A stretch of 30,579 bases of DNA from an uncultured archaeon (GTDB lineage Archaea > Asgardarchaeota > Lokiarchaeia > Sigyniarchaeales > SOKP01). Each line of letters begins with the position of its first letter. Position 1 is the stretch's first letter. The position numbers and the translations under genes are program-made. Below are positions 8,898-29,820 of the stretch, one piece after another. The stretch lies in contig CAYLZE010000061.1 of NCBI GenBank assembly GCA_964388035.1, positions 1-30,579 on the forward strand, in the 5' to 3' direction. The notes under the pieces are model-generated. The model had not been told where the DNA came from, ran no database searches, and saw nothing but the letters and a program-made list of their open reading frames with translations.

Positions 8898-10250
8898 TTA
8901 TAGTCTTGCTATGTACCTATCCCGTTCCCATTGAGAGACATGAGTCCGATATGCATCAAATTCCTCAAGTTTCGCGTAATAAAAGTTTTTAAATGGATCC
9001 TCACCAAATACGTCCCGCATTAACTCGGATTCTTTAAAAATAGTTAATGCCTGTCGTAGACTTCCCGGAAGAGCATCGATTCCTGATTTCTCAAGATCTT
9101 TTGTTGAGAAATGATATACATTTTTATCGGTAGGTTCGGGAATTTCTATATTATCTGACATTACCCCATCGAGTCCCGCTGCTAACAGTACGGCAAATTG
9201 GAGGTATGGATTTCCTGCGGGGTCCGGACATCGAATTTCACAACGCGCTGCAGAAGGGGTGCCATGAAAATCAGGCACTCGAATCAATGGAGAGCGATTC
9301 CTAAATCCCCATGCCACATATACGGGTGCTTCAAACCCAGGAACCAGTCTCCTATACGAATTAGGCCAACTACTTAATACCGCACACATTTCTTTAGCAT
9401 GGCTCAGCTGACCCGCAATCCATTTTTTCATTGTCATCGAGATATTATCTGAATTGTTTTCATCATAAAATGCGTTTTTTCCCCCTTTCCAAAGACTCTG
9501 ATGACAGTGCATGCCAGAACCATTTATTCCGGCAAATGGTTTCGGCATGAAAGTCGCCGTCATATCATTCTGGGCTGCAACCGTTTTAACAATGGATTTC
9601 ACGGTGATAGTTTTATCAGCACTTTCCACTGCCTTATCATATCGAAAATCTACTTCATGTTGACCAAAAGCTACTTCATGATGTAACTTTTCAATTTCAA
9701 TCCCCATCGCATCGCAATATTCGGCAATGATATACCGCATTTTTTCATTAATGTCGTAAGGATCATAATCAAAATACCCTCTCAAATCTGAAGGTTTAAA
9801 TGCTTGTTCAGTATCCTTGTCCAGAATAAAGAATTCCAATTCAGGAGCGCAGTAATAGGTATATCCTTCTTTTTCCGCCTTGTCTATCATTCGTTGTAAG
9901 ATATAGCGAGGATCTCCCTCATATCGTTGGCCATCGGGTTTGTAAATATCACATATAACCCGAGCAACTTTGTTACTTTTACGCCATGGAAGGAGATAAA
10001 ACGTGCTCGGGTCCGGAACGGCGACCTTATCGCTTTCTTCAATGGCACCATATCCCGTGATCGAACTACCATCAAAATTCTCTCCCTCTTTCAGTAATTC
10101 TTCGATTCTATTGGCATTTACTTCAAAACTCTTGAGAATACCATGGATATCCGTGAATTGCAGATAAATAAACTTAATCTGCTCCTCTTTTACAGTTTCG
10201 ATTATTTTTTCGCATAATCCATTTCTTTTAGGATCGTCTAATTTAATCAT
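8898..10250 (-). CDS. glnA: Glutamine synthetase type I
   Basis: FDGSSI, HHEVAFGQHE, TFMPKPFAGINGSGMH, RLVPGFEAP, NRSPLIRVP, EIRCPDPAGNPY motifs; 450 aa. Confidence 0.97.
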   Translation of the reverse strand: MIKLDDPKRNGLCEKIIETVKEEQIKFIYLQFTDIHGILKSFEVNANRIEELLKEGENFDGSSITGYGAIEESDKVAVPDPSTFYLLPWRKSNKVARVICDIYKPDGQRYEGDPRYILQRMIDKAEKEGYTYYCAPELEFFILDKDTEQAFKPSDLRGYFDYDPYDINEKMRYIIAEYCDAMGIEIEKLHHEVAFGQHEVDFRYDKAVESADKTITVKSIVKTVAAQNDMTATFMPKPFAGINGSGMHCHQSLWKGGKNAFYDENNSDNISMTMKKWIAGQLSHAKEMCAVLSSWPNSYRRLVPGFEAPVYVAWGFRNRSPLIRVPDFHGTPSAARCEIRCPDPAGNPYLQFAVLLAAGLDGVMSDNIEIPEPTDKNVYHFSTKDLEKSGIDALPGSLRQALTIFKESELMRDVFGEDPFKNFYYAKLEEFDAYRTHVSQWERDRYIARL

Positions 10251-10544: not shown

Positions 10545-11054
10545 ATGAATGAAGAAACGGAATTAGAAGAGATCGATAACGAAATCTTAAGAGAATTGAG
10601 TCTTGACGGGCGAAAGTCTTATCGAACGTTGGCAAAAGAATTAGAAAAGTCTCCCGTTACTATTAAAAAACACGTGGAAGACCTAGAAGAAAAAGGTATT
10701 ATCAAAAATTACGGGATTGGTATTGGATATGAAAAATTGGGATACGAAATCATCGCTCTAATTGAACTAACGATAGCTAAGGGAGAAATGATTAGAATAG
10801 AAAATGAAATCGCTATCGATCCTCATGTTTTCGGGGTGTATGACCTTACTGGAACTTATGATGCAGTAATTCTAGCCAGATTCAAGCAGAGAGGCGAATT
10901 AAATGCTCTGGTCAAAAGAATCAATGGAATTGACTCCGTTGCTAGAACAAATACTCATTTAGTCTTGAACGTGATAAAAGAAGGAATTTCATTCGGGGAT
11001 CTATTAAAATATGAAAAAGAAAAGGACAAATCCTTAGAAGATAAATCAACTTAG
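10545..11054 (+). CDS. Lrp/AsnC family transcriptional regulator, divergent from glnA
   Basis: IDNEILRELSLDGRKSYRTLAKEL..SPVTIKKHVEDLEEKGII HTH; YDLTGTYD RAM motif. Confidence 0.95.
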   Translation: MNEETELEEIDNEILRELSLDGRKSYRTLAKELEKSPVTIKKHVEDLEEKGIIKNYGIGIGYEKLGYEIIALIELTIAKGEMIRIENEIAIDPHVFGVYDLTGTYDAVILARFKQRGELNALVKRINGIDSVARTNTHLVLNVIKEGISFGDLLKYEKEKDKSLEDKST

Positions 11055-11167: not shown

Positions 11168-12202
11168 TTACGTTATGATGGTGGTCCATCCGAACTCATC
11201 TTCAATTTCCCCTTTTTGTATACCGGTTAGCAATTCATATAGTTTCCGCGTGATTTCTCCTGGTTCATGATCATTAAACACTCTTTTTTGATCTTGCCAG
11301 CTAATCGATCCAATAGGAGTAATGACTGCAGCGGTACCCGTGCAAAAAGCTTCCGTGCACTCCTCCGTAAAAAGCACGTCATATGGAATGTCTCTCTGTT
11401 CTGTTTTTATTCTTAGCTTTTTATCTGCGAGCTCAAAAACCGATTTTAAAGTAATCCCTTCAAGAATGGTTCCATCCCAGCTTGGCGTGCATAAGGTGTC
11501 ATTTATCATCGCACAAAAATTTGCGGCTCCCACTTCGCTGATATATTTCATATGAACAGAATCCAAATATAATATCTGTGCAAATCCTTCTTCTTTTGCT
11601 TCTTTAGCTGGCTTCATGGTTCCTGCATAATTGCTGCACGTTTTTGAAAACCCTGTTCCCCCCTTGCTCGCTCTCGTATATTTTTTGGATATTTTCAAAT
11701 CGATTGCTTCAAATCCCTTCGGGAAGTAAGGTCCCACAGGACAGCAAAAAACAATAAAGAGGTATTCTTTTGCAGGAGCGATTCCTAAAATAGGACCACT
11801 TCCAATCATTAAAGGTCGAATGTATAACGCGCCCCCGCTATCATTGGGAGGAAGATATTCTCGATTATCTTTCACGACGGCTGTTACGGCTTCCACGTAT
11901 TTTTTCTCATCATATTCCGGCATTAATAATCGTTCTGCACTATAATTCATTCGCTTTGCATTTTCTTCGGGACGAAATAATATTGGCTCTCCAGATGGAG
12001 TGCAATAAGCTTTCATTCCTTCAAAAATTCCCTGACCATAATTCAACACGCACGCCGCAGGAGAAAGTTCTATGGATCCAAAAGGAACTATCTTTCCCGC
12101 TTCCCACCTTCCATCCTTATAACGGCTAATAAACATTTTCTTGGTGGGGATGAACTCAAACCCTATGTGATACAAATCCACTTCTTTTTGTAATTCTATC
12201 AT
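11168..12202 (-). CDS. ilvE: Branched-chain amino acid aminotransferase (PLP fold IV)
   Basis: LNYGQGIFEGMKAY, LFRPEEN.KRM, LYIRP, catalytic K in GTGFSKTCSNY, EVGAAN, ILEGIT, EAFCTGTAAVITP. Confidence 0.95.
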   Translation of the reverse strand: MIELQKEVDLYHIGFEFIPTKKMFISRYKDGRWEAGKIVPFGSIELSPAACVLNYGQGIFEGMKAYCTPSGEPILFRPEENAKRMNYSAERLLMPEYDEKKYVEAVTAVVKDNREYLPPNDSGGALYIRPLMIGSGPILGIAPAKEYLFIVFCCPVGPYFPKGFEAIDLKISKKYTRASKGGTGFSKTCSNYAGTMKPAKEAKEEGFAQILYLDSVHMKYISEVGAANFCAMINDTLCTPSWDGTILEGITLKSVFELADKKLRIKTEQRDIPYDVLFTEECTEAFCTGTAAVITPIGSISWQDQKRVFNDHEPGEITRKLYELLTGIQKGEIEDEFGWTTIIT

Positions 12203-12436
12203 GGCCTAACACTTTTTCCGATTTTAAATGACCTGCAATTTTGAAAGATTAGCTCGTAACTGACCTCTTTCTAATGCAACTTGAGATTTTGATTAAGCAA
12301 GTAAGATTTGCAGAAATGTGGAAAATTAGAAACAGGCAGAAAGAGCAATCTTACTTTATAATACTAATGCTACGGCTACCCGTGCTCTAATAGCACTTGC
12401 CACTACGATAATCGCATTAGTATTGAAAGAGATCAT
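12203..12436 (-). promoter_or_regulatory. Structured 5' leader of ilvE (candidate attenuator)
   Basis: Perfect inverted repeats at 12360-12370/12414-12424 (11 bp) and 12299-12308/12347-12356 (10 bp). Segment 12265-12277 has several competing complements. Confidence 0.6.
12356..12436 (-). CDS. Putative Ile/Val/Leu-sensing leader peptide MISFNTNAIIVVASAIRARVAVALVL (26 aa)
   Basis: ATG..TAA ORF with 11/26 BCAA codons (including tandem IIVV) plus 6 Ala. Ends 153 nt upstream of ilvE and starts about 23 nt downstream of a BRE/TATA. Confidence 0.7.
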   Translation of the reverse strand: MISFNTNAIIVVASAIRARVAVALVL

Positions 12437-12458
12437 TATATGTTTTTATTTAGACAAG

Positions 12459-12473
12459 TATTAAAATTTTTCT
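12459..12473 (-). promoter_or_regulatory. Archaeal BRE-TATA promoter (AGAAAAA-TTTTAATA) for leader-ilvE transcript
   Basis: 22 nt lie between the TATA box and the leader ATG, the spacing expected for a leaderless transcript starting at or near that ATG. Confidence 0.55.
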
Positions 12474-12536: not shown

Positions 12537-13268
12537 TCATTGCATCCTGAATTTAAATAGATAAAAAAATCTGATGGGGATGACTATAGCATAGAGTATA
12601 GTGAATACAATAAAGGTATAATTAGGATATAACATTAAGACATATACACCAAAAATTGCTCCCAAGATGAGAAAAAAAAAGCCTAGTTTTTGAAGGTTTC
12701 TATTCTCTTTTTTAAAATAGAATAATTGACCAAAGAGCATGTTAACGCTCCCAAAAAGGAGAATGTAGCTTATCATGATGACGTTGGGGGATAGTAATAA
12801 CCAGGCTAATATCTGAAATAATAAGCCTAATCCCAAACCTCGGGTGATTACAATGGAAAAATAACTTATTTTTTCAACATTATCCATTTCATCGACTTTA
12901 GTTTTATAATTAAAAAAAATGCTAAATACCAATAGATCCAACCCAAAATTGAAAAGTATGAAAACGGGAAGGAGAAAGATATTATTAAAGTTACAGGTAA
13001 TCAATTGAGATAATGAGCAGTATGCGTTCAAGACAGCAATGGTTGATGCCAAAATGATTATCATTTTGGTATTCTCTAATTCGTCTCTTTTTTTGAATTT
13101 TAAGAGAGAAAAACCGATAGTCAAAAAAAAGAAACTATATATGAATGCAGTAACAGTAAGTTCCAAGAATTCTATAGCTAAAAAACCGACGATCAGATGA
13201 GTCATTCCTAACAAAATATAAACATATATAGCAACCGAAACAAATTTATCGTTATTGGCGCTTCCCAT
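12537..13268 (-). CDS. Hypothetical integral membrane protein (about 8 TM, apparently two 4-TM halves)
   Basis: Hydrophobic throughout; a TTTAAATA box lies about 22 nt upstream of the ATG. Confidence 0.7.
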   Translation of the reverse strand: MGSANNDKFVSVAIYVYILLGMTHLIVGFLAIEFLELTVTAFIYSFFFLTIGFSLLKFKKRDELENTKMIIILASTIAVLNAYCSLSQLITCNFNNIFLLPVFILFNFGLDLLVFSIFFNYKTKVDEMDNVEKISYFSIVITRGLGLGLLFQILAWLLLSPNVIMISYILLFGSVNMLFGQLFYFKKENRNLQKLGFFFLILGAIFGVYVLMLYPNYTFIVFTILYAIVIPIRFFYLFKFRMQ

Positions 13269-26192: not shown

Positions 26193-27074
26193 TTGCCGTT
26201 TAAAATTATAGAGAAAAGATATCTAATATCCGATGGGAGCCTGCTAGAGATGGAGCTTGCTACCCCCCTCATAGCTAAAAAGGCTCAACCAGGGAACTTT
26301 ATTATTCTAAGGATAAACGAAACAGGAGAACGCTTCCCGCTTACAATAGCAGATTATGATCTGGAAAAAGGTTCTATCACGATTGTGTTTCAAGTAATAG
26401 GAAAAAGTACAAAGTTATTAGCTGAACTTAAAGTGGAAGATTACATTCAAGATGTGGTGGGCCCTTTAGGAAATCCCATTTCCGTAGAAAAATATCCGCA
26501 TCCGATTATCATTATAGGGGGTGGAGTGGGAATAGCACCTTGCTACCCCCAAGCAAGAGCATTAAAAGAAGCCGGAAACGAAATAATCTCCATTCTCGGA
26601 GCACGCACGAGTAATCTGTTATTTTGGAAAGATAAAATGGCAGAAGTGAGTGATAAAATAATAATATGCACGGATGATGGTTCGGAAGGAATTAAGGGCG
26701 TTGTTACAGGTCCCTTGAAAGATTTAATGTCTAATGAACCCATTAGCTTAGTCATTGCCATAGGTCCTCTCATCATGATGAAATACGTTACATTAACCAC
26801 TAATGGAAGTGCAAGCCTTCCGAAAATAAAAACCATGGTCTCCTTGAATCCAATAATGGTGGATGGAACCGGCATGTGTGGTGGGTGTAGATTTCTTTCT
26901 ACTACGGGTCAAGTTTATTTTGCTTGCGTGGATGGACCAGATTTTGACGGCCATCTCGTAGATTTTGATAATTTAATCAAGAGAGCGAAACGATTTCAAG
27001 AGCAGGAATTAAAATCCTTAAACCTTTTTGAAAAGAATTGCAAAGCTCTTGAAAAGTTCAGAAAGGTGAGTTGA
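26193..27074 (+). CDS. nfnA: NfnA/SudB-type FAD/NAD-binding [2Fe-2S] subunit
   Basis: ERFPLTIAD, GPLG, GGGVGIAP, MVDGTGMCGGCR...ACVDGPDFD (Asp/Cys3 [2Fe-2S]); immediately upstream of an NfnB-like domain. Confidence 0.88.
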   Translation: MPFKIIEKRYLISDGSLLEMELATPLIAKKAQPGNFIILRINETGERFPLTIADYDLEKGSITIVFQVIGKSTKLLAELKVEDYIQDVVGPLGNPISVEKYPHPIIIIGGGVGIAPCYPQARALKEAGNEIISILGARTSNLLFWKDKMAEVSDKIIICTDDGSEGIKGVVTGPLKDLMSNEPISLVIAIGPLIMMKYVTLTTNGSASLPKIKTMVSLNPIMVDGTGMCGGCRFLSTTGQVYFACVDGPDFDGHLVDFDNLIKRAKRFQEQELKSLNLFEKNCKALEKFRKVS

Positions 27075-27078
27075 TTTA

Positions 27079-29820
27079 ATGCAATTCAGAAGCAATTTAA
27101 TCGATATTTTGCTAAGTAATAAAGATAAAATTATAGCCTCCAAAAAGTATACAGAAAGTGAATTTGAGGTTTTTATAGCTGCTTTAATGCAAGCAGAAAA
27201 ACTTAGATACGAAATTCTTGAAAAAATTAAAATCGATAATGAGATAGATGTAGAGAAATTAGCTAAAGAGTTTAAAATTTCCCGAAATGCAGTGGGGTTA
27301 AATCTGGAATATTTAAAGGAGGCGGGATTATTGGAATTCGTTGGAGAAGTCTCGGAGTTTTATAGGAGTTTAGAGAAGAAAAACGATAAGCTGGGGGTCT
27401 TTCCTACTATTTTAGAATTAAAAGAAAGGAATCTATGTTCGGGTTGCGGACTATGTGTTTCCACATGCCCCACTAATGCCATAAATTTCACTAATGATGT
27501 ATTAGAAATAGATGAGGGAGCTTGTATTAAATGTGGGTTATGTTATGCCTGTTGTCATCGAACCTTCTTTCCAAATCTTTTAAATGACGTGGGGGTAAAA
27601 AAAGAGAAAGATGATAAATTTCTTAAAGAACTCAATTATTACAAGGAAATTTATACGGCTCAAACCAATGATGAACAGATAAAAAAAGTGGCTCAAGATG
27701 GTGGAGTTGTCACCAGTCTACTAAAAACAGCTTTTTTAGAAAATTTGATTGATACAGCACTAGTAGTTGGGGAATTGAAAGATGAATTTAGCCTTAAGCC
27801 CTTCCCTTACTTAGCATTTAACGAACAAGAACTATTAAACAGTGGTGGTACTAAATACTCTAATGCCCATTTATTAAAGATCCTACAGCAAGCAAGGGCT
27901 AGAAAGTCAATTGCTGTGGTTGGAACGCCTTGTACGATGCAAGCACTTAAGAAAGTTGCCGCATATCCTCTTAATAAGCCACTTTTTGACAATATTTGGA
28001 TCAAAATCGGTATTTTTTGCATGGAATCATTTGACCATGCTAAAATAGTGGAAATATTAAAAAGCAAATTCCAGAAAAAGCCCGAAGAGATCAGAAAAAT
28101 GAACATTCATGGGGGACGATTCATCATTTACGATAACGAGGGAAAACATCATGATATTCCCATAAAAAATGTAAAGGAATACGGGCGTTATGGTTGCTTC
28201 TTATGTAGCGATTTGACAGCTGAACATGCTGATATTTCTATAGGCTTTATTGGTTCTGATCCAGATTGGTCTACCGTGATTATAAGATCTAAAAGAGGAT
28301 TAGAACTTTTCCAAAAATCCTCGGAACATCAATTAATAAAAAAGAAGCTAATTAAAGAGACAGATGAAAACTTCACGCAATTACGTAAGATTGCTCGCTC
28401 CAAAATGAAGTTTTATAAAGAGATTCCCAGACAAAAAATGATTGAACAAGATCCCGTGGAAAGAAGTAAGAATTTTTTGGAGGTTCCCCAAGGGCTCACT
28501 CCTGAAATGGTTAGATTAGAGACTTTGAGATGTTTGCAATGTGGAAATCCTTCATGTATTCAAGGATGCCCCGTAAATGTAAATATTCCCGAATTTATCA
28601 GATTCCTGAAATTAGGAAAATATAATGAAGCCGCTCATAGTATTAAACAGTATAATTTATTGCCAGCCATATGTGGGAGAGTCTGTCCCCAAGAAATACA
28701 ATGTGAGGAATTCTGTTTATTAGGAAAGATTGATAAGCCGGTCGCAATAGGGTATTTAGAGAGATTTATTGCGGATTGGGAGCGAAAAAACCAATTGAAA
28801 GTATGTCCTGATTGTAGGCCTCCCAATGGTATTAAGGTTGCGGTAATTGGGAGTGGTCCTGCAGGATTAACGTGTGCTGCGGATTTGGTCCGATTAGGAT
28901 ATGAGGTTACAATTTTTGAAGCCTTTCATGAGGGAGGTGGTGTTCTGGTTTATGGGATTCCCGAATTTAGATTGCCTAAAGAAATCGTAAAAGATGAAAT
29001 AGAGACTGTTCAACTTTTAGGCGTTAAAATAAAGTATAATGCTATCATAAGTAAGCTCCTTACTATTGAAGATTTAGAAGATTTGGGGTTTAAAGCGATT
29101 TTCATAGGAGTTGGAGCCGGATTGCCACAAATGCTAAGAATATGTGGCATAGAATTAAATGGTGTCTTAACTGCAAATGAATTCCTCACGCGCACCAATT
29201 TAATGAAAGCTTATAGATTTCCAGAATATGACACTCCTATTGATGTAGGAAGTCAAGTCACCGTAATTGGCGGAGGAAATGTCGCCGTAGATTCGGCGCG
29301 TGCGGCTCTCAGATTAGGAGCAAAAAAGGTAACAATTATATATCGTAGAACTGAAGTAGAAATGCCCGCCCGTAAGGAAGAGATTCACCACGCGAAGGAA
29401 GAAGGAATTAATTTCATGTTCTTAACGAATCCCATGGAATTTATTGGAGATGTTGAGGGCAATGTAAAAGAAATGGTTTTAGAAAGAATGAAATTGGGAG
29501 AACCAGATGAATCGGGAAGGAGATCTCCAGTACCAATTGAAAAGTCTAATTTTACCATTGATACCGATATGGTCATCATTGCGATTGGAACTAGTGCTAA
29601 TACCTTATTATTGAGGAAAATTCCTGATTTAAAACTCACAGCAAGACAATACATCATGACAGACGAAGATGGTCGTACCAATATAGAAAATGTATTTGCC
29701 GGAGGTGATATTGTTACAGGATCCGCAACGGTAATATCTGCTATGGGTGCTGGAAGAAAGGCAGCAAAAGCTATTGATCAATATCTTATTAAAAAATATA
29801 AAGATTCTCAATGTTCTTAA
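27079..29820 (+). CDS. Fusion protein: wHTH + 2x[4Fe-4S] + FrhB/FpoF-like F420-binding domain + NfnB/SudA (GltD-like) NADPH oxidoreductase
   Basis: HTH 'VEKLAKEFKISRNAVGLNLEYLKEAGLL'; CSGCGLCVSTCP and CIKCGLCYACC; FrhB motifs AQDGGVVT, GTKY, VGTPC, IGIFCMESF, CFLCSDL...ADISIG; NfnB motifs RCLQC..C.QGCP, ICGRVCPQEIQCE, GSGPAG, GGGNVA, YRRT, GGDIVTG. Confidence 0.88.
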   Translation: MQFRSNLIDILLSNKDKIIASKKYTESEFEVFIAALMQAEKLRYEILEKIKIDNEIDVEKLAKEFKISRNAVGLNLEYLKEAGLLEFVGEVSEFYRSLEKKNDKLGVFPTILELKERNLCSGCGLCVSTCPTNAINFTNDVLEIDEGACIKCGLCYACCHRTFFPNLLNDVGVKKEKDDKFLKELNYYKEIYTAQTNDEQIKKVAQDGGVVTSLLKTAFLENLIDTALVVGELKDEFSLKPFPYLAFNEQELLNSGGTKYSNAHLLKILQQARARKSIAVVGTPCTMQALKKVAAYPLNKPLFDNIWIKIGIFCMESFDHAKIVEILKSKFQKKPEEIRKMNIHGGRFIIYDNEGKHHDIPIKNVKEYGRYGCFLCSDLTAEHADISIGFIGSDPDWSTVIIRSKRGLELFQKSSEHQLIKKKLIKETDENFTQLRKIARSKMKFYKEIPRQKMIEQDPVERSKNFLEVPQGLTPEMVRLETLRCLQCGNPSCIQGCPVNVNIPEFIRFLKLGKYNEAAHSIKQYNLLPAICGRVCPQEIQCEEFCLLGKIDKPVAIGYLERFIADWERKNQLKVCPDCRPPNGIKVAVIGSGPAGLTCAADLVRLGYEVTIFEAFHEGGGVLVYGIPEFRLPKEIVKDEIETVQLLGVKIKYNAIISKLLTIEDLEDLGFKAIFIGVGAGLPQMLRICGIELNGVLTANEFLTRTNLMKAYRFPEYDTPIDVGSQVTVIGGGNVAVDSARAALRLGAKKVTIIYRRTEVEMPARKEEIHHAKEEGINFMFLTNPMEFIGDVEGNVKEMVLERMKLGEPDESGRRSPVPIEKSNFTIDTDMVIIAIGTSANTLLLRKIPDLKLTARQYIMTDEDGRTNIENVFAGGDIVTGSATVISAMGAGRKAAKAIDQYLIKKYKDSQCS

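What the first reader, a model, noticed from the sequence alone, without database searches (positions are those of the whole stretch)
12356..12473. Ile/Val/Leu-rich leader peptide upstream of ilvE: candidate ribosome-mediated attenuation in an (Asgard) archaeon
Seen: the minus strand encodes a 26-codon ORF, MISFNTNAIIVVASAIRARVAVALVL (4 Ile, 5 Val, 2 Leu, 6 Ala; tandem ATT ATC GTA GTG). It is too short for the ORF track. Its ATG lies 22 nt after a BRE-TATA element, so it would open a leaderless mRNA. It ends 153 nt before the branched-chain aminotransferase gene. Known: this is the architecture of bacterial ilvGMEDA/ilvBN leader-peptide attenuators, and archaea couple transcription and translation, but such attenuators are poorly documented in archaea. 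Inference: ribosome stalling at BCAA (possibly also Ala) codons controls ilvE expression, using archaeal promoter and initiation signals.
Basis: partly seen in the sequence, partly recalled or inferred. Interest (0 to 1): 0.9.

Follow-up and report, generated by a model that had tools for sequence, protein, structure and literature searches.

The report
Amino-acid-sensing leader peptide in Asgard archaea
A 26-codon mini-gene rich in alanine, valine, isoleucine and leucine opens the ilvE messenger, and it belongs to a family of over 100 such leaders in one Asgard family whose codon runs match the downstream gene, pointing to bacterial-style ribosome sensing that I found described in no archaeal paper.

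Summary

**In the window**
- The 26-codon ORF (12436-12356, minus strand) starts 22 nt after a TATA box and ends 153 nt before a branched-chain aminotransferase gene.
- It is one member of a conserved leader family.

**Distribution**
- A covariance model finds the leader in 107 of 131 sampled genomes of this family (Promethearchaeota MAGs).
- It finds none in 125 genomes of 26 other families of the phylum.
- This genome holds three copies.

**Evidence that the ORF is read and regulatory**
- The ORF stays in frame over 13 different lengths.
- The promoter spacing implies a leaderless mRNA.
- The commonest residue in the last 12 codons tracks the downstream gene:

| Downstream gene | Commonest residue | Leaders |
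|---|---|---|
| ilvE | Ala | 17/17 |
| Leucyl-tRNA synthetase | Leu | 36/36 |
| Acyl-CoA dehydrogenase | Val | 5/5 |
| FrhB-like protein | Ile | 11/12 |

**RNA structure**
- A covarying stem begins at the stop codon.
- Its loop carries U-tracts, the archaeal terminator signal.
- A purine block can pair either with the start-codon region or with that U-tract, which gives two mutually exclusive folds.

**What is not shown**
Translation, termination and the direction of the response are inferred. I favour that stalling turns the gene on.

I found no archaeal report of such leaders. Earlier agents of this scan noted the same system in other genomes.

The parts
12459..12473 (-). Archaeal promoter: A-rich BRE-like stretch plus the TATA box TTTTAATA (12466-12459), 22 nt before the uORF ATG.
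   Evidence: Sequence. The same TATA-to-ATG spacing (box start 30-33 nt before the ATG) holds in nearly all family members.
12356..12436 (-). Leaderless leader ORF of 26 codons plus TAA. Ala, Val, Ile and Leu fill the second half.
   Evidence: Frame conservation in the family is 46 of 47 over 13 lengths. Ala is the commonest residue of the last 12 codons in 17/17 ilvE leaders.
12425..12435 (-). Segment 1: the start-codon region. It forms the 5' strand of the closing helix P1 and pairs with 12271-12261.
   Evidence: 11-bp helix in the window. Own-versus-permuted partner test for the family gives z = 5.3.
12414..12424 (-). Hairpin A, 5' arm (codons 5-8, the AAYACT motif).
   Evidence: 11-bp helix with 12370-12360. 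Family test z = 7.7. Also present in the MFE fold.
12360..12370 (-). Hairpin A, 3' arm: the last four sense codons, ending 1 nt before the stop codon.
12345..12356 (-). Stem B, 5' arm. It starts on the last base of the stop codon.
   Evidence: In the family, all 13 modelled pairs covary and 90% of cells are paired. Permutation z = 14.3. The arm begins 1-5 nt after the first base of the stop codon in 50 of 56 leaders and at 6-8 nt in the other 6.
12312..12344 (-). Pyrimidine-rich loop of stem B with U-tracts. In this copy the longest run is only T4, at 12325-12322. Its 5' part (12345-12338) can pair with the purine block.
   Evidence: In the family, T>=5 occurs in 47/56 and T>=4 in 54/56, with the first run a median of 26 nt after the stop. 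Loop-to-purine-block pairing gives z = 5.8.
12299..12311 (-). Stem B, 3' arm.
12261..12271 (-). Purine block (GAAAGAGGTCA). It has two mutually exclusive partners: segment 1 (the start codon) or the U/C tract in the stem-B loop.
   Evidence: It is the most conserved block of the alignment.
12243..12274 (-). 3' strand of the alternative long hairpin. It pairs with 12354-12326 and so excludes stem B and P1.
   Evidence: MFE folds. The long hairpin is the MFE in 47/56 family members.
12227..12233 (-). Second GGTCAT-like block. It pairs with the start-codon region when the long hairpin forms.
   Evidence: MFE fold. The family test of segment 1 against the region after the purine block gives z = 3.9.
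11168..12202 (-). Regulated gene: branched-chain amino acid aminotransferase (ilvE), of the paralogue clade that always carries the leader.

Best explanation
The stretch is a ribosome-mediated amino-acid sensor, a leader-peptide attenuator, built from archaeal parts. Transcription starts at or next to the ATG, so the leader ORF is read as a leaderless message while the RNA is still being made. The last dozen codons call for Ala, Val, Ile and Leu. How fast the ribosome clears them reports the supply of the matching charged tRNAs. The stop codon abuts a covarying stem (stem B) whose loop displays U-tracts, the archaeal termination signal bound by aCPSF1/FttA.

My preferred reading, which is inferred, runs as follows. 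With ample charged tRNA the ribosome finishes and leaves, stem B forms, the U-tracts are exposed and most transcripts end before ilvE. When the ribosome lingers on the terminal codon run it covers the RNA just behind the polymerase and the foot of stem B. The polymerase then escapes, and the U-tract is later locked into the long alternative hairpin with the purine block, so ilvE is expressed. Pairing of the start-codon region with a purine block afterwards shuts the leader's own start site.

Shown: a conserved in-frame ORF, the promoter spacing, codon identity matched to the gene, the covarying helices, mutually exclusive pairings and a conserved U-tract. Inferred: translation, termination and polarity.
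For: 1. Conservation. A model built from six relatives finds 57 loci. The rebuilt model finds the element in 107/131 genomes of the family, in 0/19 genomes of other families of the order and in 0/125 genomes of 26 other families of the phylum.
2. Coding. The AAYACT motif is in frame with the stop in 46/47 leaders across 13 ORF lengths of 20-37 codons. The other two frames hold 0-9 stops each, about 2 to 6 on average.
3. Leaderless start. The TATA-like box begins 30-33 nt before the ATG.
4. Codon identity tracks the gene in 114 leaders: ilvE Ala 17/17, leucyl-tRNA synthetase Leu 36/36, acyl-CoA dehydrogenase/ETF Val 5/5, FrhB-like Ile 11/12. The synthetases include both the archaeal and the bacterial type. 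Background frequencies are Ala 0.057, Val 0.055, Leu 0.088 and Ile 0.099.
5. Structure. All 13 pairs of stem B covary. Own-versus-permuted partner tests give 4:5 z = 14.3, hairpin A z = 7.7, loop to purine block z = 5.8 and start region to purine block z = 5.3. The long alternative hairpin is the MFE in 47/56 leaders.
6. U-tract. T>=5 occurs in 47/56 leaders, a median of 26 nt past the stop. aCPSF1 binds U4 tracts, and the Lokiarchaeota orthologue behaves likewise (PMC8716108). FttA and the RNAP stalk contact RNA 20-28 nt behind the 3' end (PMC11616081). With the polymerase on the U-tract, that stretch is the stop codon and the foot of stem B. The genome encodes aCPSF1.
7. Polarity. A Leu-codon leader on leucyl-tRNA synthetase gives stabilising feedback only if stalling raises expression (inference).
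Against: Translation, early 3' ends and the response to amino acids are therefore untested.

The window's own copy is a weak member: 55.9 bits, E about 3e-5 with the rebuilt model, and only a T4 run.

The U-tract sits in a loop and not after a hairpin. A U-run at the 3' end of the long hairpin is present in only 13 of 47 leaders, so there is no canonical intrinsic terminator.

The class-specific codons spread over positions -1 to -12. Many stalled ribosomes would therefore not reach stem B, which weakens the occlusion geometry.

Acyl-CoA dehydrogenase/ETF looks catabolic and would fit the opposite polarity better.

Leaders within one class are related by descent, so the counts per class are not independent events. 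The loop-to-purine-block pairing is between a U-run and a purine run, so its register is ambiguous.
Confidence: 0.8

Rival explanations
1. Same device, opposite polarity. A ribosome that follows the polymerase closely pushes it through the U-tract or shields the nascent RNA. Ample amino acids then switch the gene on, and stalling uncouples the two machines and causes termination. This would induce catabolic genes by their substrates.
For: The U-tract begins a median of 26 nt after the stop. A ribosome arriving at the stop codon would therefore touch a polymerase paused there (spacing judged from bacterial expressome structures, own knowledge). Acyl-CoA dehydrogenase/ETF and an amidohydrolase are among the regulated genes. 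A steric-exclusion model for FttA against the ribosome is proposed in PMC11616081.
Against: For leucyl-tRNA synthetase this wiring is destabilising, because less charging would give less enzyme. Yet 36 of 36 synthetase leaders, of two unrelated synthetase types, are Leu-rich. The genome has the biosynthetic genes ilvC, ilvD and leuA, so ilvE can be biosynthetic.
Confidence: 0.25
2. The ORF encodes a small hydrophobic peptide with a job of its own, such as a membrane peptide or a type I toxin-like product. The RNA structure would only control that peptide's synthesis.
For: The C-terminal halves are strongly hydrophobic. About 43 of 114 copies precede only small proteins and not enzymes.
Against: Apart from the parts tied to RNA helices, there is no conserved peptide sequence and the length varies from 20 to 37 codons. 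The composition switches among Ala, Val, Leu and Ile according to the downstream gene, which a membrane anchor would not need. The distance to the next start codon is fairly constant at about 40-65 nt after the element.
Confidence: 0.07
3. It is a structured cis-regulatory RNA, a riboswitch or a protein-binding leader, in which the open frame is a by-product of sequence constraints.
For: Four helices with covariation or co-variation-like support and a conserved loop motif. An Lrp/AsnC regulator gene lies next to ilvE in the window.
Against: Insertions and deletions are always multiples of three across 13 lengths, and the other frames are closed. Third-position variation occurs within Ala codon runs (GCA, GCT, GCC, GCG). 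The start codon sits at a fixed distance from the TATA box. No Rfam family matches.
Confidence: 0.05

Closest known systems
Enterobacterial leader-peptide transcription attenuators (ilvL of ilvGMEDA, ivbL of ilvBN, leuL, trpL, pheM of pheST); own knowledge
   Same: A short ORF in the 5' leader carries a run of codons for the amino acid linked to the downstream gene. It overlaps or abuts mutually exclusive RNA helices. It is placed before branched-chain amino-acid genes and before an aminoacyl-tRNA synthetase. Multivalent versions (Ile+Val+Leu) exist.
   Different: The ORF starts at the 5' end of the transcript, with no Shine-Dalgarno sequence, behind an archaeal TATA box. The codon run reaches the stop codon. 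The ORF contains a whole hairpin. The U-tract lies in a loop directly after the stop, and there is no conserved hairpin-plus-U terminator. Ala is a sensed residue. The termination machinery would be archaeal (U-tract plus aCPSF1/FttA).
Leaderless leader ORFs of Actinobacteria: mycobacterial polycysteine short ORFs (10.1101/834739) and the Corynebacterium glutamicum ilvBNC attenuator (PMC11857589)
   Same: The sensory short ORF begins at the transcription start. Several unlinked loci share the device, so the ribosome coordinates a regulon (a 'ribulon').
   Different: Those are bacterial. [quoted passage not shown] Here, folding with ribosome masks gave no consistent change in accessibility of the downstream ribosome-binding site.
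tnaC leader of the E. coli tna operon (a stalled ribosome blocks Rho access next to the stop codon); own knowledge
   Same: My preferred mechanism is of this type: a ribosome held at the end of a leader ORF denies a termination factor the RNA next to the stop codon.
   Different: tnaC senses free tryptophan through an arrest peptide and not charged tRNA through codon runs. The factor there is Rho, whereas here it would be aCPSF1/FttA. Nothing of this has been tested here.
T-box leaders of Firmicutes (own knowledge)
   Same: The regulon logic is the same: synthetase genes and branched-chain amino-acid genes respond to the charging of the cognate tRNA.
   Different: T-boxes bind tRNA directly and have no ORF. 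No Rfam family, T-box included, matches the window.

Membership tests
Leader-peptide (ribosome-mediated) attenuators | A short ORF in the 5' leader that is maintained as coding sequence | tested here: met
   In frame in 46/47 leaders over 13 lengths, with the other frames closed. An ORF is present at the same model position in 56/57 and 62/62 loci examined, plus one GTG-start copy.
Leader-peptide (ribosome-mediated) attenuators | A run of codons for the amino acid related to the regulated gene | tested here: met
   Leu 36/36 before leucyl-tRNA synthetase, Ala 17/17 with Val, Ile and Leu before ilvE, Val 5/5 before acyl-CoA dehydrogenase.
Leader-peptide (ribosome-mediated) attenuators | Mutually exclusive RNA structures whose choice depends on ribosome position | tested here: inconclusive
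   The alternative pairings are supported: stem B against the long hairpin, and the purine block with either the start region or the loop. Stem B starts 1-5 nt after the first base of the stop codon in 50 of 56 leaders and at 6-8 nt in the rest. Dependence on the ribosome is inferred only.
Leader-peptide (ribosome-mediated) attenuators | A terminator before the structural gene (in bacteria, a hairpin followed by a U-run) | tested here: not met
   There is no conserved hairpin-plus-U terminator: U>=4 lies near the 3' end of the long hairpin in only 13/47 leaders. Instead a U-tract (T>=5 in 47/56) lies in the stem-B loop. That fits the archaeal signal (PMC8716108), but the window's copy has only T4.
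Leader-peptide (ribosome-mediated) attenuators | The leader is translated and early termination responds to amino-acid supply | not testable with these tools
No culture or reporter data exist.
Actinobacterial leaderless sensory short ORFs | The ORF begins at the transcription start site | tested here: met
   This rests on promoter geometry only: the TATA box start lies 30-33 nt before the ATG across the family. No transcription start mapping was done.
Actinobacterial leaderless sensory short ORFs | [quoted passage not shown] | tested here: inconclusive
   The unpaired probability of the downstream ribosome-binding site under three ribosome masks showed no consistent shift in 54 leaders.
Known RNA families (Rfam 15) and tRNA-like elements | A match to a curated covariance model or a tRNA | tested here: not met
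   No Rfam match at gathering threshold and no tRNA or tmRNA in the window.

The most novel reading that the evidence does not exclude
One family of Asgard archaea runs a ribosome-gauged regulon. Leaderless sensory mini-genes tuned to four different amino acids (Ala, Val, Leu, Ile) gate aCPSF1/FttA-dependent termination at a U-tract placed one ribosome-to-polymerase distance after the stop codon. The regulated genes are a spare ilvE, spare leucyl-tRNA synthetases of two origins, acyl-CoA metabolism, an F420-module protein and a family of unknown small proteins. This would be the first factor-dependent, translation-coupled attenuation system in archaea, found in the closest prokaryotic relatives of eukaryotes.
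Probability: 0.35. Interest if true: 0.95.

Novelty: new variant of a known kind. Interest (0 to 1): 0.87.

Why it matters
Leader-peptide attenuation is the textbook case of transcription-translation coupling used for regulation, and it is regarded as a bacterial device. My full-text searches found no archaeal case.

This family offers more than 100 natural variants with matched codon identity, a defined promoter, covarying helices and an archaeal U-tract signal. That makes three open questions directly testable:
- whether archaeal ribosomes and RNA polymerase are functionally coupled;
- whether aCPSF1/FttA polices that coupling, as proposed in PMC11616081;
- how leaderless mRNAs can serve as sensors.

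It also flags the leader-bearing ilvE paralogue as an enzyme linked to alanine as well as to branched-chain amino acids. It further links an unknown small-protein family and an FrhB-like protein to amino-acid status.

Tried and rejected
- **DNA similarity search.** A search of 40 relatives with the leader gave only chance-level hits. The element is too divergent for BLAST.
- **Pattern search.** A 17-nt degenerate pattern with one mismatch matched no more often than its reversed control. It was useful only for a few exact hits that seeded the model.
- **Rfam and tRNA scans.** Nothing found.
- **Translational control by masking the ribosome-binding site.** Folding 54 leaders free and with three ribosome positions gave no consistent change. 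I dropped this as the main output.
- **A second U-run after the long hairpin as a bacterial-type terminator.** It is present in only 13/47 leaders, so I rejected it as a general feature.
- **Other pairings.** Segment 1 with the stem-B 5' arm, hairpin-A 5' arm with the purine block, and the stem-B 3' arm with anything downstream showed no support (z between -1.5 and 0.3).
- **Column-wise covariation of the loop-to-purine-block helix.** Several registers score alike because a U-run faces a purine run. I did not take it further.
- **Tree building.** The first tree script gave no answer. I repeated it with MAFFT and FastTree.
- **Downstream small proteins.** Pfam and the protein atlas found no family.
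- **Leaders on biosynthetic operons.** The genome-wide scan of this genome found no such leader before ilvC, ilvD or leuA with my criteria.

Full report
**Observation.** The minus strand carries an ATG ORF of 26 codons at 12436-12356. It has 4 Ile, 5 Val, 2 Leu and 6 Ala. TTTTAATA lies at 12466-12459, 22 nt before the ATG. The stop codon lies 153 nt before the ATG (12202) of a 344-aa protein. That protein is a branched-chain aminotransferase: Pfam Aminotran_4 and NCBIfam NF009897 at 408 bits against a cut-off of 307.

**It is conserved.** Six-frame reading of the 450 nt upstream of ilvE in 30 relatives showed similar ORFs before the two closest orthologues. All ended in the same few codons and were followed by the same block of sequence. 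A covariance model built from six such leaders found 57 loci in 46 of 135 genomes of the family. Rebuilt from those hits, it found the element as follows:

| Sample | Genomes with the element |
|---|---|
| This family | 107 of 131 |
| Three other families of the order | 0 of 19 |
| 26 other families of the phylum | 0 of 125 |

Record titles name the carriers as Promethearchaeota or Promethearchaeia MAGs, that is, Asgard archaea. This genome has three copies:
- the ilvE leader in the window;
- one on contig C128 (2045-2165, minus strand) before a small protein;
- one on contig C48 (4521-4638, minus strand), with a GTG start and an Ile-rich run, before an FrhB-like protein.

**The ORF is coding.** In 46 of 47 leaders that keep the AAYACT motif near the start, the motif is in frame with the stop codon, although ORF length takes 13 values between 20 and 37 codons. 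The other two frames hold 0-9 stops each, about 2 to 6 on average. Ala runs use GCA, GCT, GCC and GCG. A TATA-like box begins 30-33 nt before the start codon in nearly all members. This places the transcription start at or next to the ATG, so the mRNA is inferred to be leaderless from promoter geometry. In the whole 5.47-Mb genome only nine ORFs meet loose criteria of this kind, and two of them are model-supported leaders.

**Codon identity follows the gene.** I identified the next gene for 114 leaders. The commonest residue in the last 12 codons was as follows:

| Downstream gene | Commonest residue | Leaders |
|---|---|---|
| ilvE | Ala (Ala 0.44, Val 0.23, Leu 0.13, Ile 0.11) | 17/17 |
| Leucyl-tRNA synthetase | Leu | 36/36 |
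| Acyl-CoA dehydrogenase plus ETF | Val | 5/5 |
| FrhB-like protein with a TrmB domain | Ile | 11/12 |
| Two groups of small proteins, one followed by an amidohydrolase | Val or Leu | 43 leaders |

- Background frequencies are 0.055-0.099.
- The synthetases include both the archaeal and the bacterial type, with at least four unlike leader sequences.
- Leaders within a class share descent, so these counts are not independent events. The switch of residue between classes is the informative part.
- On an ilvE tree the 16 leader-bearing genes form one clade (support 0.991). Forty-one leaderless genes of the family form the sister clade (support 0.72). Many genomes, this one included, have one of each.

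**RNA anatomy.**
- **Stem B** starts 1-5 nt after the first base of the stop codon in 50 of 56 leaders and at 6-8 nt in the other 6. It is the best supported helix: all 13 modelled pairs change on both sides, 90% of cells pair, slid controls collapse, and the own-versus-permuted partner test gives z = 14.3. The alignment was fitted to the model, which favours it.
- **Its loop** is pyrimidine-rich. It holds T>=5 in 47 of 56 leaders and T>=4 in 54, with the first run starting a median of 26 nt after the stop.
- **Hairpin A** pairs codons 3-8 with the last codons and the stop (z = 7.7).
- **A purine block** about 100 nt after the stop pairs either with the start-codon region (z = 5.3) or with the U/C tract in the stem-B loop (z = 5.8). 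The two pairings exclude each other.
- **A long hairpin.** Folded from the stop codon onward, 47 of 56 leaders prefer a long hairpin that joins the stem-B 5' arm and loop to the purine block and what follows. Its energy is -22 to -44 kcal/mol, against -6 to -22.5 kcal/mol for the part made before the purine block exists.

In the window these parts are at the coordinates listed under parts. The window's copy is a weak member: 55.9 bits and only a T4 run.

**Mechanism.** Shown are a conserved, in-frame, promoter-anchored ORF with gene-matched codon runs, abutting a two-state RNA that displays a U-tract. Everything beyond that is inference.
- U-tracts are the archaeal termination signal, and aCPSF1 binds them. 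The Lokiarchaeota orthologue does so too (PMC8716108).
- FttA and the RNAP stalk hold the RNA 20-28 nt behind the 3' end (PMC11616081).
- With the polymerase on the U-tract, that stretch is the stop codon and the foot of stem B. A ribosome resting on the last codons would cover it (footprint size from bacterial data, own knowledge).
- The genome encodes aCPSF1.
- I therefore favour that a lingering ribosome prevents termination and the gene goes on. A ribosome that finishes and leaves lets stem B present the U-tracts, and the transcript ends.
- The main argument for this direction is functional. A Leu-codon gauge on leucyl-tRNA synthetase is stabilising only if poor charging raises the enzyme.
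- The genome has ilvC, ilvD and leuA, so ilvE can act in synthesis.
- The opposite direction, in which a close ribosome pushes the polymerase through, is not excluded. It would suit the acyl-CoA dehydrogenase class.
- Control at the downstream ribosome-binding site found no support.

**Comparison with what is known.** The device works like the enterobacterial ilv, leu, trp and pheST leaders (own knowledge). In its leaderless start and regulon-wide use it works like the mycobacterial polycysteine short ORFs (10.1101/834739). It fails the bacterial definition on the terminator, since there is no conserved hairpin-plus-U element, and on the Shine-Dalgarno-led start. No Rfam family matches. Four full-text searches found no archaeal leader-peptide attenuator.

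**Earlier notes of this scan.** I read these after my own analysis. Other agents had described the same leader family before leuS, small proteins and acyl-CoA genes in other genomes, and an Ala-rich ilvE leader in a relative. Those are unchecked AI notes and add no independent evidence, but they agree with what I tested here.

**Limits.**
- Relatedness inflates the permutation tests.
- The loop-to-purine-block pairing has an ambiguous register.
- Polarity and the role of aCPSF1/FttA are untested.

Noticed in passing
L132:1319-1441 (minus) and L132:889-1062 (minus), on own-genome contig C128; also L116:1680-1814, L135:1667-1870 and L149:941-1096: About 43 of 114 leaders precede small proteins of 41-68 aa that share an LDY-x-x-F/W..P-A/G-E motif. 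One group ends in IAW, one has a PGEIEIE motif, and one is followed by an Amidohydro_3 gene. They lie between a divergent family-4 glycosyl hydrolase gene and a convergent class I/II aminotransferase gene. No Pfam family or atlas neighbour was found.
   Followed up: partly
Own-genome contig C48:4521-4638 (minus) and the 477-aa gene after it; L205:430-1851: Ile-rich leaders (11 of 12) precede a stand-alone FrhB-like (F420 hydrogenase beta-like) protein with a TrmB-type winged helix. It is related to the module fused to the Nfn-like enzyme at 26193-29820 of this window. Why isoleucine should govern it is unexplained.
   Followed up: partly
window 10545-11054 (+) and 8898-10250 (-): An Lrp/AsnC-type regulator gene lies tail to tail with ilvE, next to a glutamine synthetase gene. 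It could be a second, protein-based layer of amino-acid control of the same locus.
   Followed up: no
ilvE leaders of relatives, about 5-15 nt after the purine block (for example L113, L114, L121): A palindromic AAGCGCTT motif recurs in ilvE-class leaders but not in the window's copy. It could be a protein site or part of the long hairpin.
   Followed up: no
L210:2-2113 and L214:3-2096 against L180:1-2148 and L224:3-2174: Genomes of this family carry leucyl-tRNA synthetases of both the bacterial type (TIGR00396) and the archaeal type (TIGR00395/NF008957). Both types can sit behind Leu-rich leaders.
   Followed up: partly
window 12537-13268 (-): The gene upstream of the leader encodes a 243-aa protein with no Pfam match. 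Its C-terminal part is rich in hydrophobic residues, so it is probably a membrane protein.
   Followed up: no
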